From Eledone cirrhosa (Eukaryota): a stretch of 64,000 bases of DNA. Of the stretch, positions 3,098 to 27,777 are shown one piece after another. The notes below the pieces were generated by a model that worked only from the letters and a program-made list of their open reading frames with translations, had not been told where the DNA came from and made no database searches. The stretch is taken from positions 17,546,001 to 17,610,000 of the forward strand of contig OZ024754.1 in NCBI GenBank assembly GCA_964016885.1, written 5' to 3'. The position numbers and the translations under genes are program-made. How positions within the stretch are numbered: the first letter of the stretch is position 1; each line of letters starts with the position of its first letter.

Positions 3098-3138
3098 TGC
3101 CCTTGAGAAGCCCTTTCGGGCGAAACGTACGTAGGTGC
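3098..3138 (+). ncRNA. Minimal hammerhead ribozyme, U3-A8 core variant (Penelope-like LTR)
   Basis: TTGAGAA, stem II gccc-tttc-gggc, GAAA, C-gtac-G palindromic loop, GTA triplet, weak stem I; AATAAA follows. Confidence 0.55.
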
Positions 3139-3329
3139 TGTTTTAAATAAACATATTTTAACGGTTTGTTCTCCTTTATATACTTCTCCACGTGCATCCA
3201 CTCTGCTTATATTCTCGCCCACTAGATATTAACACTTCTAATATTTAACACTGCAGGCACAAGTAGAAGTTTGGGCAGAGAGTTCTTGTTTACGGAGGCA
3301 TATCCGGGTGTAGGAGGCTTATCCGGGAT

Positions 3330-4201
3330 TTCTTGAAAGAATTTATCTGGATGCCCTTTCTAACACCAACCACGTTTACAGTGTGGACTGTGTTTTTTTG
3401 TCGTGACACCTACACAACCTCATTTATTTAGGACTGGATGTTATGGTACCAACATAGCTTTACATCGAAAGGAGTGGTGTAGATGGTGGTGGGGGTAGGG
3501 GTAGTGGGACGGGTGTGCATTTTGGCTAAGAGGTGCCCACCGACTGTAGGTTTCGCTTTGTACTTAGGCAAGGCGGGTCTTCTGTATTACTGCGCAGCGC
3601 CATAGACCTCGGTCCAGTGACACTGTCTTGGAAAGGTGCAAGTGTGTGAGGTCGGAATTTATCAAGTCATCCCAGGTTTTTCTGGGTCTGCCTACCACGC
3701 AGCTACCGTCCATTTTGATCGCCCTGCACTTTGTTATACAGTGTCGTCTTTCATGCGAATCACGTGACCATACCAACGCAGTCCTCCCTCGAGTAAACAG
3801 CATCTGATCCCTCTCATTCCCAATTTCTCACTCAGTTCATTTATACTCTGCCTCTCGCGTACACTACCATTACACATCCAACAGAGCATGCAAGCTTCGT
3901 TCCTCTCCAGTCTGCGTCGATCCTCTGCACACAAGGCCCATGTCTCACTGCCATCACACAGCCTGCCCCTCACTTTTAGAGAGAAACCATTAGCGGCCAA
4001 TAGTGGTATAAGCTCTCTGAACCTTTTCCATCTCGTTCCGACTCTAGCTACAGCACCTTCGGAGCACCCTCCACCACTGCCGATTCTGTCACCCAGGCAA
4101 CGGAAGGTGTCCACCACTTCTACAGAACTATCTGGGCAATGGAATGAGCTAGCATTCTGTGGGCATTTGCTGCTACTTATTGCACCAGAGCACCGGCCAC
4201 A
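3330..4201 (-). mobile_element. 5'-truncated, diverged RTE LINE fragment
   Basis: ORFs 3734-4117 and 3564-3803 match the C-terminus of the 12.7-16.5 kb element; 3' UTR present. Confidence 0.9.
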
Positions 4202-4534
4202 TATATTATTAATAATTATTAATTAATTCTATCGTGCAATGCCTGTGCGTGTAGATATTATTTAAAGTGAGAAAAGACTGTGCACTGAGCCAATCCCACT
4301 CTCTGAGCGACAGTAGCTATAACCCGAAATGAAGAAAAGATCAACATCATTGGTAACTACTGAGCCACAGGTTTTATATTGGAGTCATCCCAGTTTCCTG
4401 AGTTCCTAGAAGAATGCCCTGACAAAGGCTAGGGGTCCTTCACTCCCAGTGGTTTAACCGCGTGGTAAATGTGTATATACATATTTACACACTTTCGGAT
4501 GGCTGTTGACTCTTATGAGTTCTTTCGCCCTTTG

Positions 4535-6615
4535 TATATATATATATACATAAACATACATATAAACACATACACATATATATATATATATATATAACCT
4601 TGACCGACCAGTCTCTCGGGCGTCCATTCGGCGCTGCTAGTCACAGCACGTCGTACCGTTTTAGCCATAAGATAACGCCACCCCACCGGCTGGGCGGACA
4701 GGCCGATATATATATATATATATATATATATATATACACATACATATATACATACACATACATATACATACATACATATATACATACACATACATATATA
4801 CATACATATATACATACATATATACATACATATATATATATACATACATATATACATACATACACATATATATATATACATACATATATACATACACATA
4901 TATATATATACATACATATATACATACACATATATATATATATATATATACATATATACATATATACATACATATATACATACACATATATATATATACA
5001 TACAGATACATATATACATACATACATACACATACATATATATATATACATACATACACATATACATACACATATATATATATACATACACATATATATA
5101 TATACATACATATATACATACACATATATATATATACATACATATATACATACACATATATATATATATACATACATATATACATATACACATACATATA
5201 GACATACACATACATATATACATACACATATACATATATATATACACATACATATATACATACACATATACATATATATATACACATATACATATACACA
5301 TATATATATATATATATACACATATATATATATACACACACATATATATATATATACATATACATATATATATATATATACACATATATATATATACACA
5401 CACATATATATATATACACATATATATATATAGACACATATATATATATACACACACATATATATACACACACATATATATACACACACATATATATATG
5501 TGTATATATATATATACACACATATATATATATACACATATATATATACATACACATATATATATACATACACATATATATATACATACACATATATATA
5601 TACACATATATATATATATATATATACACATACATATATACACACATATATATATATATATATACACATATACATATATATATATATATATATATATATA
5701 TATACACATACATATGTTAGCAAGTAAAGATATGCATATGCTATAAGCGTTCTTTGTTATTGATTATATCACGGCTCTGTCCTCAGACATCGAGCTAACC
5801 TTATACTGCCTGTTGGATAAGTGGAGTGTTATACACCCCTGATCCTCTCCCTAGTATACTATATATATATATATATATATATATATATACACATACATAT
5901 ATACACATACATATATATATATATATATATATATATATACACATACATATATATATATATATAACTATATATATATACACATACATATATACACATATAT
6001 AACTATATATATATACACATACATATATACACATATATAACTATATATATATACACATATATAACTATATATATATACACATACATATATATATATATAT
6101 ATATATATACACATACATATATATATATATATATATATACACACATATACATATATATATATATATATATATATACACACACATATATATATATATATAT
6201 ACACATACATATATATATATATATATATATATACACACATACATATATATATATATATATACACATACATATATATATATATATATATATACACACATAT
6301 ACATATATATATATATATATATATATACACACACATATATATATATATATATACACATACATATATATATATATATATATATATACACACATACATATAT
6401 ATATATATATATATACACACATACATATATATATATATATATATATATATATACACACATACATATATATATATATATATATATATATATACACACATAC
6501 ATATATATATATATATATACACATACATATATATATATATATATATATATATATACACATACATATATATATATATATATATATATGTATATATATATAT
6601 ATATATATATATGCA
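4535..6615. repeat. (TA)n/(CA)n/(TACA)n compound microsatellite with two short unique inserts
   Basis: Direct reading; inserts at ~4598-4705 and ~5715-5860. Confidence 0.95.
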
Positions 6616-6715
6616 AAAGTTCTAATTAAAATTGTTGGGATACAACAAGTAAATATTTTTATAACTGATATAAAGCACTCGACAAGTATTTGGAGTAGAT
6701 ATACGATATTAATAA

Positions 6716-7049
6716 ATGGAAACTATATTTATAAAACCATATTTATTTCATTATACATATTTCAGGGATACCAAATTAAATTATGGTATGCCTTCATCAG
6801 ACAAAATACAATATATAACAGTTTTACAAATAAGCTTTGACGTACCCTATTAAAATGCAACCATTGTTTTTGGAAGTCATCCGGATGACTTCCAAAAACA
6901 ATGGTTGCATTTTAATAGGGTACGTCAAAGCTTATTTGTAAAACTGTTATATATTGTATTTTGTCTGATGAAGGCATACCATAATTTAATTTGGTATCCC
7001 TGAAATATGTATAATGAAATAAATATGGTTTTATAAATATAGTTTCCAT
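6716..7049. repeat. Perfect spacer-less palindrome (167-bp arms) made of a Penelope-like LTR
   Basis: Centre TCC|GGA at 6882/6883; arms read as exact reverse complements. Confidence 0.92.
6957..7021 (+). ncRNA. Type I hammerhead ribozyme (mirror copy at 6744-6808 on minus)
   Basis: Stem I tattttgt/atgaaata, CTGATGA 6965-6971, stem II agg.atacca/tggtat.cct, GAAA, T-atgt-A, ATA triplet; covaries with the 19543 copy. Confidence 0.7.
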
Positions 7050-25668: not shown

Positions 25669-25719
25669 AGATTCCTGATGATTTCTAAAGAATGAAACAG
25701 TTCTAGTCCTGTAGAATCT
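25669..25719 (+). ncRNA. Type I hammerhead ribozyme in a Penelope-like LTR
   Basis: Stem I agattc/gaatct, CTGATGA 25675-25681, stem II ttc/gaa, GAAA, stem III cag/ctg, GTA; TATAAATA lies ~25 nt upstream. Confidence 0.8.
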
Positions 25720-25969
25720 CATCTCTATTAAAACTTTTATACTCTGCTATGTATTGAGTACCTTACTTACTGTGGTTACCTCCGATTCAACCCGGAATAA
25801 CGTATATATACATATATATATATATATATATATATATATATATACATATATATATATATATATATATATATATATATATATATATGTAGATCCCAGGTTA
25901 AATCGGGGATAACCACAGTAAGTCAAGTACTCAATACATAGCAGAGTAAAAGTAATTTAATATAGAAAT

Positions 25970-26020
25970 GGCTTCTACAGGACTAGAACTGTTTCATTCG
26001 GAGGAAATCATCAGAAAGCC
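25970..26020 (-). ncRNA. Type I hammerhead ribozyme, same family as 25669, inverted
   Basis: Reverse strand ggcttt-CTGATGA-tttc ctcc gaat-GAAA-cag ttctagtc ctg-TA-gaagcc; stem I covaries with the plus copy. Confidence 0.8.
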
Positions 26021-26377
26021 GACTGTCAATGTAAATTTCTGGTATTTATACATTTTGTCATGGTAAGGGAATAGTGGTTGGGGAGAGGGGGGGGGTAAAG
26101 GTCATGGTGGGATTAAAGGATGGGGATTCTTAGAAAAAACAAAATTTATTTAGAGAAAGAAGTTTAGTGGCAAGTTGCAATTGAAATAAACACTTCCTTA
26201 TTCTATAGTACACTATATATATATAATTATATATATATGTGTGTGTGAGAGTGAGTGTGTGTGTGTGTGTGAGTGTGTGTGTGTGTGTTAAGTATTTCTG
26301 AACAACTATATATATATAGTGTTCGGAAATATTTAACACACACACGCACATATATATATATCAAGCCGGGTCATATA

Positions 26378-26890
26378 TCTCCTTATAATATATAACCAGC
26401 AATTTCTCTGTTTGTCTATCTGTCTGTCCGACAGTGGAAACACGTGCGCGCGTGCGAATGTTTTTTGCGCACGCGTAGAGAGAGAGTGAGAGTGAAAGAA
26501 AGAGACAGACTACGAGAGGGGGATAGCGGGAGGGAGAGAGAGTGAATAGACGCTAAAACACGTGCGCGCGTGCGACTGTTTTTTGCGCACGCGTAGTGAG
26601 AGTGAGAGTGAAAAAAAGAGACAGACTACAAGAGGGGAAAAGTGGGAGGGAGAGAGGGGGGGGGGAATTGAGGAGTGCTACAGAAACATATATACATTTC
26701 TGTGTGTGTGTAATATATATATATATATATACACACACAGAAATATATATATATATACACACAGAAATATATATACATTTCTGTGTGTGTTATATATATA
26801 TATATACACACACAGAAATATATATACATTTCTGTGTGTGTAATATATATATACTAGCAGAAAACCCCCAAAAGAGCGGTTTTCTGCTAG
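26378..26890 (+). mobile_element. Non-autonomous Helitron-type element
   Basis: A|TC start; ends in the 14-bp inverted repeat actagcagaaaacc...ggttttctgCTAG|T. Confidence 0.55.
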
Positions 26891-27777
26891 TCTATATATC
26901 TAAAACAGAGAATGTCTGTCTGACTCCCTAAAGCTCGAGAACCACGCAACCGATTGTTTTCAAACTTTACACATGTAATACTTTTGGTCCTGTGAGTGTT
27001 TTGAGCAAAAATAATTTCCAATTTTCAATGCTCTAGGGACCGCATTAGGTGATTTAGCGATCTCTCTATAATTCTTAGTCTTTCTTTTTAGATAGATACA
27101 TACATATAACGTTGCGCCCTTATAATTGTTTCTACTTTTGGCACAAGGCCAGCAATTATCCAGTGCATTACTGGTACTTTATTTTATCGACCCCGTAAGG
27201 ATGAAAGGCAAAGTAAACCTCGGCGGGATTTATCTGTCTGTATGTCTGCATTACATTATGACTCTGTGTGTGTATATGTATATATAGTGTGTGTATATAT
27301 GTATATATAATGTGTAACGTTTTTCGAAATATTTACTTCTGCGATTTTTTTAGTTTCAGAAGATCCCGTTCAGGGTGAAAGCAGTTATTATTTGCTTAAA
27401 CCATAATTATATATATATATATATATAATTATATAAGAATTAAAATACTAGAGTGTGTTGGAGTTAAACACCCTCTTCATATTATAGAAATGACAGTAAA
27501 GGTATAGCTCAATGTAATTAAACAGAGCCGAAGAATTAAGAAAAAAAAAATATATATATATATATATATATATAATTATATATATATATATAATTATATA
27601 TATATATATATAATTATATATACATATAATTATATATCGTGCACAGATATTTTTGCATACACAATAACAAAATATAAACAAACGTATTTATTTCATGAGG
27701 CTCGATAAGGATAAATATATATCAAATATATAAGAACCCTAGTGCAAATCCCAAGCAAGGCCGGGCCATTCTGCTAG
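26891..27777 (+). mobile_element. Second, abutting Helitron-type element carrying SINE and PLE fragments
   Basis: TCtatatatctaaaac start; 3' hairpin cccaagcaaggccggg then CTAG|T at 27774-27778, same end style as 11994-12022. Confidence 0.65.

What the first reader, a model, noticed from the sequence alone, without database searches (positions are those of the whole stretch)
3098..27401. Eleven hammerhead-ribozyme folds of about six families, mostly in islands inside (TA)n tracts
Seen: hammerhead folds at 3098, 6744(-), 6957, 16967, 19543, 20240(-), 21589, 23058, 25669, 25970(-) and 27352. Several show compensatory stem changes between copies, and most have palindromic stem III loops (gtac, atat, ctag, gacgtc). 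All but the 3098 copy sit in short unique islands bounded by (TA)n. Established: Penelope-like element LTRs and non-autonomous retrozymes carry type I hammerheads. Inference: a diverse community of ribozyme-bearing retroelements targets or accumulates in TA microsatellites. If this region is an intron of the 28-kb gene, the minus-strand copies could cut its pre-mRNA.
Basis: partly seen in the sequence, partly recalled or inferred. Interest (0 to 1): 0.75.

Follow-up and report, generated by a model that had tools for sequence, protein, structure and literature searches.

The report
Penelope retroelement hammerheads crowding one intron
These eleven hammerhead-shaped RNA motifs are end-pieces of six repeat families that sit in TA runs across this genome (four protein-coding Hydra-type Penelope retrotransposons and two non-coding repeats they likely move), piled up in a predicted 28-kb intron whose RNA they are predicted mostly not to cut; this is a known kind of element, though one family with over 22,000 copies carries an unusual core change whose effect on cutting is untested.

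Summary
All 11 motifs are present and far above chance (11 descriptor hits against 0.13 in shuffles). They come from 9 insertions of six families, and the islands are repeats, not unique DNA. Four families (A, B, C, F) are pseudo-LTR ends of Hydra-clade Penelope-like elements, with telomerase-like RT plus endonuclease ORFs elsewhere in the genome. Two (D, E) are ORF-less 679- and 706-bp head-to-tail units like non-LTR retrozymes. Copies end at fixed points joined to (TA)n, as published for the Hydra clade (PMC8557442). The intron guess holds by homology: a predicted 43-codon minus-strand gene has a 28,444-nt intron over all 11 motifs. Cutting of that pre-mRNA looks unlikely. Of three sense copies, one is buried in a perfect 330-bp palindrome, one has a U4A core, and only the one cutting at 25976 has a brief folding window. 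Family B has a non-U at core position 4 in 22,068 of 22,175 matches. The scan found this U4A family and similar retrozymes before on other DNA of this genome. No cleavage or RNA data. Verdict: new members of known kinds.

The parts
1..27990 (-). Predicted phase-1 GT-AG intron (28,444 nt; ends 454 nt left of the window) of a small two-exon gene; spans all 11 motifs
   Evidence: no RNA support
27991..28039 (-). Predicted coding exon 1 (16 codons plus one base, CxxC motif) of a conserved 43-aa Cys-rich protein; exon 2 is in L038 at G000:C14:17,545,546 downwards
   Evidence: residues 1-17 of homologues hit here, best E 7.8e-6
2841..3263 (+). Family F Hydra-PLE 3' fragment; hammerhead core 3103 with U3-A8 pair, palindromic stem III, predicted cut site 3133; 3' end lost
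6607..7063 (.). Family A Hydra-PLE inverted insertion: minus arm with tail (core 6800, site 6752) and plus arm with short end (core 6965, site 7013); perfect 330-bp palindrome 6718-7047
12074..12115 (+). Family B 3' scrap after a TA run, lacking the hammerhead core
16604..17346 (+). Family D non-coding 679-bp unit, 1.09 copies (54-bp terminal redundancy); canonical hammerhead core 16972, long loop 2, predicted site 17042
19470..19659 (+). Family A, second subfamily (82% identical), 3' fragment; canonical core 19551, predicted site 19600
20214..21744 (.). Family B Hydra-PLE inverted insertion: minus arm 20344-20214 (core 20285, A4, short end) and plus arm 20340-21744 (endonuclease 3' piece 20341-20666, 3' UTR, core 21594 with A4 and A8, long end)
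22866..23352 (+). Family E non-coding 706-bp unit, 0.69 copy; canonical core 23062, about 100-nt stem-loop II, GUC site 23180
25451..25801 (+). Family C subfamily 1, 3' fragment; canonical core 25675 with U10.1-U11.1, predicted site 25713
25882..26212 (-). Family C subfamily 2 (Hydra-PLE), 3' fragment facing C1 across one TA run; core 26014, predicted site 25976; the only sense copy with a folding window in the host pre-mRNA
27313..27407 (+). Family B fragment (core 27357, A4) carried inside a Helitron-like non-coding repeat of about 26890-27780
   Evidence: 16 of 29 other loci share both flanks

Best explanation
The motifs are pseudo-LTR hammerheads left by nine insertions of four Hydra-clade Penelope-like retrotransposon families and two non-coding retrozyme-like units that likely borrow the same kind of enzyme, and they sit in a predicted host intron that they are predicted mostly not to cut. 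Shown: families A, B, C2 and F have RT-endonuclease ORFs joined to these same motifs elsewhere in the genome; D and E are ORF-less head-to-tail units; copies end at one or two fixed points 25-410 nt after the predicted cut site and join (TA)n; 5' ends vary and are often inverted. Inferred from known PLE biology: the GIY-YIG endonuclease nicks a TA run, the RT starts copying at internal sites downstream of the hammerhead, and copying from both strands gives inverted insertions with one short and one long (tailed) end, as in the window's A and B elements. Because inserts run through an intact cut site, the template was uncleaved or re-ligated RNA (inferred). Repeated insertion into the same TA runs explains the cluster. 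The hammerheads likely trim tandem transcripts slowly, as dimers or with help from the element protein; D and E likely yield unit-length, possibly circular, RNAs. Family B likely spread with a weak or dead ribozyme. In the host pre-mRNA, 8 motifs are antisense and cannot cut; of the 3 sense motifs only 26014 is predicted to fold, briefly.
For: Stop-free 709-aa ORFs in L123 and L125; pLTR-ORF-pLTR layout for A in L207 and F in L211; C2 pLTR reads into an ORF start in L232 and L223. Model pLDDT 93.8, top five PDB fold matches all telomerase RTs; one of four homologues scanned hits Pfam GIY-YIG, E 1e-5. Hydra motifs RWR, DKT, CxCx5C, CxxC/CxH present and CCHH-type insert absent (against the definition). 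TA directly after the fixed end: C1 30 of 30, C2 27 of 30, A 27 of 30, B 25 of 30, F 19 of 25, E 18 of 25, D 25 of 25 with 7 being one duplicated locus; background 12-15%. Two ends per family: A +55/+145, B +30/+120, C about +25/+90, D +305 (20 copies) and +400-410 (2 copies), matching the two internal RT start sites of PMC11167929. D and E exceed one unit in 9 of 25 and 11 of 25 loci, up to 2.65 units, longest ATG-started ORF 56 aa. Covariation. Pre-mRNA folding penalties: 6800 +95, 20285 +10 to +12, 26014 +3 to +5 rising to +46 kcal/mol once the C1 arm is made. Intronic hammerhead cuts did not block splicing in work cited by PMC2995048.
Against: No cleavage assay and no RNA data. No Rfam hammerhead hit among listed rows. 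Monomer folds are marginal: penalty 1.3-10.5 kcal/mol, MFE never the full fold. Pfam finds nothing on the family B protein itself, and my GIY-like pattern matched none of five ORFs, so the endonuclease call rests on homologues and motif position. No ORF was tied directly to subfamily C1; it is placed by 77% identity to C2. D and E show no sequence link to any of the four PLE families, so their partner could be Naiad or Neptune instead. Units of A and F are about 3.5 kb, longer than the usual Hydra size under 3 kb. Loci were the best-scoring 25-30 hits per search, include the window's own copy, and are not a random sample. No tree with published Hydra proteins was built.
Confidence: 0.88

Rival explanations
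1. The sense hammerheads, above all the one cutting at 25976, cleave the host pre-mRNA during transcription and lower or regulate expression of the small Cys-rich gene; selection has removed or muffled other sense copies.
For: The intron is supported. 26014 has a canonical core and is transcribed about 200-300 nt before its inverted partner. Of 7 one-directional insertions 6 are antisense (one-sided binomial 0.06, my arithmetic). The other two sense copies are buried or core-changed. Fast ribozymes can abort splicing (second-hand).
Against: PLE hammerheads are slow in vitro or need protein; 8 of 9 Xenopus retrozyme dimers did not cleave; hammerhead cuts in introns left splicing intact; a well-folded sense motif persists at 43431 in the next gene's intron; the orientation bias is not significant.
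Confidence: 0.07
2. The elements insert into AT-rich DNA without specific TA targeting, and the (TA)n flanks are added by the RT or grow afterwards by slippage.
For: PLE RTs are telomerase-like; several ends stop in TA-like element sequence; TA runs make up 11% of the region; a Poseidon PLE prefers ATT rather than a repeat.
Against: TA also lies at the variable 5' ends of D and E (20 of 25, 21 of 25); unrelated families meet in one TA run (25803-25885); 23 of 27 Hydra families in the supplement sheet are annotated plainly as (TA)n plus further rows, and only one has no entry; many runs are short and interrupted.
Confidence: 0.04
3. D and E are not independent retrozymes but long pseudo-LTR pieces of further autonomous PLEs whose ORFs were not sampled.
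For: Only 25 best loci each were read with 1.5-kb flanks; pLTRs form partial tandems; Li et al. 2026 derive retrozymes from pLTRs.
Against: Read-through copies run from the 3' end back into the same unit, not into an ORF; up to 2.65 units in a row; D motif pairs 680-724 bp apart in the genome list; no tblastn hit of the B protein to either unit.
Confidence: 0.1

Closest known systems
Hydra clade of C-terminal EN+ Penelope-like elements, including Hydra-1_Obim of Octopus bimaculoides (Craig et al. 2021, PMC8557442; passages, section 11, supplement searches and part 2 of 59 read)
   Same: Single RT-endonuclease ORF of about 700 aa; RWR, DKT, CxCx5C, CxxC/CxH motifs; no CCHH; 3' hammerhead, often with U10.1-U11.1 as in most Hydra rows of File S2; (TA)n insertion; 5' truncation, inverted copies, optional tail.
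   Different: At least four families here against one octopus family listed; units about 3.5 kb for A and F; tails of 65-90 nt rather than 30-40; family B has A at core position 4, family F has U3-A8, while all listed Hydra cores start CTGA. Hammerhead sequences differ from Hydra-1_Obim by eye.
Metazoan non-LTR retrozymes (Cervera and de la Pena 2020, PMC7229834, passages; Li et al. 2026, bioRxiv 10.64898/2026.07.22.740005, parts 1-3 of 5)
   Same: Non-coding head-to-tail units, one type I hammerhead per unit, GC 35%, co-occurring with PLEs.
   Different: 679 and 706 nt, above the 170-400 nt of the tested RNAs but inside the 51-972 bp range of Li et al.; mostly 0.7-1.8 units; long stem-loop II inserts; fixed TA-joined ends; circular RNA not shown here.
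Poseidon PLE of Anolis carolinensis, in vitro (Frangieh et al. 2024, PMC11167929; parts 1-2 of 4)
   Same: Two internal RT start sites that define an optional tail; inserts keep the uncut hammerhead; hammerhead mutants did not stop insertion, which fits the success of family B.
   Different: Different clade; ATT rather than (TA)n targets; start sites lie inside the ORF there and upstream of it here; nothing was assayed here.
Natural hammerhead core variants (Cervera and de la Pena 2014, PMC4209133, parts 1-2 of 4; Perreault et al. 2011, PMC3088659, section 8 and passages)
   Same: U3-A8 is reported in Schistosoma PLEs; U10.1-U11.1 and U4C are reported natural variants.
   Different: U4A fixed in a family of over 22,000 motifs was not found in searches; Lunse et al. 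2017 could not be read.

Membership tests
Type I hammerhead ribozyme | Core CUGANGA, GAA, A15.1-U16.1, NUH site | tested here: met
   Met by 7 of 11 (three A, two C, D, E); F has the known U3-A8 swap
Type I hammerhead ribozyme | Core U4 and 3-8 pair in the three family B copies | tested here: not met
   A4 in all three, A8 too in 21594; 107 of 22,175 genomic matches have T at position 4
Type I hammerhead ribozyme | Three stems kept by covariation | tested here: met
   Families A and C; not tested this way for B, D, E, F
Type I hammerhead ribozyme | Stable active fold as a monomer | tested here: inconclusive
   Penalty 1.3 (D) to 10.5 kcal/mol; MFE is another fold; energy models ignore tertiary contacts and dimers
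Type I hammerhead ribozyme | Site-specific self-cleavage | not testable with these tools
   Needs an in vitro assay
Hydra-clade PLE (families A, B, C2, F) | Single ORF with telomerase-like RT | tested here: met
   Stop-free in B; A, C2, F read from broken natural copies at 37-55% identity to B; fold matches telomerase RT
Hydra-clade PLE (families A, B, C2, F) | C-terminal GIY-YIG endonuclease without CCHH | tested here: inconclusive
   Homologue P0102 hits PF01541, the B protein does not; YIG-like motif in place and no CxxC insert in five ORFs
Hydra-clade PLE (families A, B, C2, F) | RWK-like motif, DKT, CxCx5C linker, CxxC and CxH | tested here: met
   DKT, linker, CxxC, CxH in all four families; RWR in A, B, C2, not seen in the broken F copy
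Hydra-clade PLE (families A, B, C2, F) | Hammerhead in pLTR and (TA)n insertion | tested here: met
Hydra-clade PLE (families A, B, C2, F) | Length generally under 3 kb | tested here: not met
   A 3,489 and F about 3,495 bp between motifs; a tendency in the paper, not a strict rule
Hydra-clade PLE (families A, B, C2, F) | RT phylogeny within the Hydra clade | not tested
   Published reference proteins were only seen as text in the supplement; compared by eye
Non-LTR retrozyme (families D, E) | Head-to-tail non-coding units, one type I hammerhead each, low GC | tested here: met
Non-LTR retrozyme (families D, E) | Expression as unit-length linear and circular RNA | not testable with these tools
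   Needs RNA; see Tried and rejected
Non-LTR retrozyme (families D, E) | Mobilised by a PLE enzyme | tested here: inconclusive
   Fixed TA-joined ends and a second end about 100 nt on in 2 D copies; no sequence link to a named partner

The most novel reading that the evidence does not exclude
Hydra-PLE hammerheads are a standing load on host pre-mRNAs in this genome: sense, foldable copies such as the one at 25976 cut introns during transcription, so surviving intronic copies are antisense, buried in inverted arms or core-mutated, and the family that swapped U4 for A reached over 22,000 copies because its muted ribozyme is cheap for the host while the fold is kept as a handle for its protein.
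Probability: 0.12. Interest if true: 0.7.

Novelty: new member of a known kind. Interest (0 to 1): 0.36.

Why it matters
The main link (Hydra-clade PLEs carry hammerheads and insert in (TA)n) is published, so the cluster itself is ordinary for this genome. What it offers is a natural test set for an open question, what PLE hammerheads do. One family with stop-free ORFs spread to over 22,000 motifs with A at a core position where mutation scans show low activity, and 107 natural U4 copies exist for comparison. Two long retrozyme-like units show PLE-type ends. One small conserved gene must be transcribed through nine such insertions, three motifs in sense, which makes the cost of intronic ribozymes directly measurable.

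Tried and rejected
Rfam scan: no hammerhead family in the 150 listed of 183 hits. A strict descriptor found only the three A motifs. Expression: no RNA holder listed for the D unit; the three listed runs, laid on exon 1, were contigs with no joint and say nothing on splicing. Pfam and NCBIfam gave no named family for the PLE ORFs or the host protein; sequence searches of the PDB gave nothing significant; the ESM Atlas gave no result. First idea that family A is the 5' end of family B (seen in L032): rejected, A has its own ORF. A Neptune-type endonuclease fragment beside one C1 copy (L058) is in no other locus held at that point: rejected as C's ORF. First idea that the '28-kb gene' is the coiled-coil gene at 34-76 kb: rejected once the two-exon gene was found. 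Idea that 679-706 nt is a record size for animal retrozymes: rejected. Idea that 27352 marks an older B subfamily with compensatory changes: rejected, it is a passenger fragment. A shared TTGAG-type motif downstream of the hammerheads in all families was seen but not tested against a control. Lunse et al. 2017 was not available; supplements of the bioRxiv paper and figures listing core variants were not seen and may bear on the U4A claim. Dropped rows: the 10 loci fetched for having U4 were left out of the position table; duplicate loci are noted for D and E.

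
Full report
Setting. The window is G000:C14:17,546,001-17,610,000 of a 3.0-Gb animal genome. It is probably an octopus; that label is recalled from repeat types and from scan notes and was not tested.

Observation. All eleven motifs are present. A relaxed type I descriptor gave 11 hits in bases 1-33,000: ten of the listed motifs and one chance overlap. It missed the 23062 copy, which has lost a stem III pair. 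Sixty shuffles gave 0.13 hits on average and never more than one. Seven motifs have a canonical core. F has U3-A8, a swap known from Schistosoma PLEs (PMC4209133). The three B copies have A at position 4, and 21594 has also lost G8. B and C start stem II with U-U, which is a known variant (PMC3088659) and common in the Hydra rows of the Craig supplement. Stems covary in family A (44 two-sided changes against 16 in shuffles, 0 of 500) and family C (12 against 6.8, 6 of 500); the count of covarying pairs alone did not exceed the shuffles, and related sequences can inflate these scores. Against the motifs: Rfam listed no hammerhead hit, and single motifs do not fold into the full three-stem form as their best structure, with penalties of 1.3-10.5 kcal/mol. 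Weak monomer folds are usual for PLE hammerheads.

Nine insertions, six families. Self-BLAST shows that 6744/6957 are the arms of a perfect 330-bp palindrome and 20240/21589 the arms of one inverted element. Each family has many genomic copies; exact pattern counts were 22,175 for B and 163 for D. The islands are therefore not unique.

Four families are Hydra-clade PLEs. Walking upstream from family B led to stop-free 709-aa ORFs in two loci, with the hammerhead both before the start codon and after the 3' UTR. The window itself holds the last 108 codons of this ORF at 20341-20666. Family A (L207) and family F (L211) show motif-ORF-motif layouts of about 3.5 kb. In subfamily C2 the pLTR reads into an ORF start, and six loci carry the same ORF at the junction. 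No ORF was tied to C1, which is 77% identical to C2. The proteins are 37-55% identical to one another. The B protein has 454 homologues at E up to 1e-30 among 7,995 scored; its model (pLDDT 93.8) matches telomerase RTs best; one of four homologues scanned hits GIY-YIG. The motifs that define the Hydra clade in section 11 of PMC8557442 are present. That paper lists (TA)n as the target of nearly all Hydra families, including Hydra-1_Obim.

Two families are retrozyme-like. D (679 bp) and E (706 bp) are head-to-tail units with no ATG-started ORF above 56 aa. They exceed one unit in 9 of 25 and 11 of 25 loci, up to 2.65 units; seven D loci are one duplicated site and two E pairs are the same locus. 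This fits non-LTR retrozymes (PMC7229834), and the size lies within the 51-972 bp range of Li et al. 2026.

TA targeting. (TA)4 follows the fixed 3' end in C1 30 of 30, C2 27 of 30, A 27 of 30, B 25 of 30, F 19 of 25 and E 18 of 25 loci, against 12-15% for random points in the same flanks; D has it in 25 of 25. TA also flanks the variable 5' ends of D and E in 20 and 21 of 25, which points to insertion into existing runs. These are best-scoring loci, not a random sample. Families A, B and C have two ends 65-90 nt apart, and D has a second end in two copies. The window's inverted A and B elements each have one short and one long end. This matches the two internal RT start sites and optional tail shown in vitro for a Poseidon PLE (PMC11167929). 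All ends lie downstream of the predicted cut site, so the copied RNA was uncut or re-ligated (inference). The 3098 exception is a copy cut off at 3263. The 27352 copy is a passenger in a Helitron-like repeat: 16 of 29 other loci share both flanks (the Helitron label rests on recalled end features).

Family B core. Of 22,175 matches allowing A or T at position 4, 107 have T, a level in line with the scatter at neighbouring positions in 111 fetched copies. In a saturation scan of another hammerhead, single changes in the CUGA turn gave low activity (PMC9901934, passages). Hammerhead mutants did not block insertion in vitro. The simplest reading is that B spread with a weak or dead ribozyme. I found no paper on a fixed U4A family in searches, but could not read Lunse et al. 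2017. The scan had already noted this family on other DNA.

The host intron. A minus-strand ATG at 28039 opens a 49-nt exon ending in a GT donor at 27990; an AG acceptor 454 nt left of the window continues the frame to a stop, giving 43 codons and a 28,444-nt intron. A search with the exon 2 frame found 13 homologues at E up to 0.001, and the N-termini of several map back to exon 1 (best E 7.8e-6, 3e-5, 2.6e-4). The gene is predicted, not shown by RNA. Eight motifs are antisense to it. Of the three sense motifs, 6800 is buried in the palindrome (+95 kcal/mol), 20285 has A4 and a +10 to +12 penalty, and 26014 is within 3-5 kcal/mol of folding until the inverted C1 arm is transcribed, then +46. 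Hammerhead cuts inside introns left splicing intact in work cited by PMC2995048, while a faster ribozyme blocked it (passages; originals not read). Six of seven one-directional insertions are antisense, a weak hint of selection (one-sided 0.06, my arithmetic), and a well-folded sense motif in the next gene is a counter-example.

Verdict. The cluster is an instance of published Hydra-clade biology plus two new retrozyme-like families. A recent octopus repeat annotation does not mention ribozymes or retrozymes in its main text (PMC13282606, passages), so these families may be undescribed, but the kind is known. The value lies in the U4A family and the testable intron.

Noticed in passing
   Followed up: partly
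window 28039-27991 (-) and L038 9546-9467 (-): Conserved 43-aa Cys-rich microprotein (CxxC, GCGxH, CxC) with no Pfam or NCBIfam family; homologues of 39-96 aa.
   Followed up: partly
window about 26890-27780: Helitron-like non-coding repeat that has captured a family B fragment and an inverted B tail and spread them.
   Followed up: partly
window 7271-10046 (-) and 12699-16519 (+): Inverted pair of LINE copies at 90% identity, with a 948-aa stop-free frame at 12699-15542; further fragments at 3376-4205, 17416-19042, 22219-22665, 23996-24662. RTE type by recall.
   Followed up: no
window about 34500-64000 (-), continuing into L040 and L041: Multi-exon coiled-coil gene with many duplicated exons; no Pfam hit above cut-off.
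   Followed up: no
window 4597-4705, 5716-5858, 24810-24914, 27424-27550: Other short islands between TA runs without a type I hammerhead by my descriptor; not checked for the rearranged hammerheads that scan notes report in this genome.
   Followed up: no
window 31444-31938: 495-bp palindrome at 94.5% identity.
   Followed up: no
window 1835-2740 (-) and 60713-61820: Broken DDE transposase-like frames, pogo/Tigger-like and Tc1/mariner-like by recall.
   Followed up: no
window 45404-52451, 32833-33807, 34741-35314: 47-48-bp tandem arrays, one of 149 copies, derived from a SINE/LINE 3' motif.
   Followed up: no
families A-F, 15-40 nt past several 3' ends: A TTGAG/TCGAG-type motif follows copy ends in A, B, C and D and may mark the RT start site; no control run.
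   Followed up: partly
L166 about 1050-1150: Yet another Hydra-like family with its own ORF fragment and hammerhead directly upstream of an E copy.
   Followed up: no
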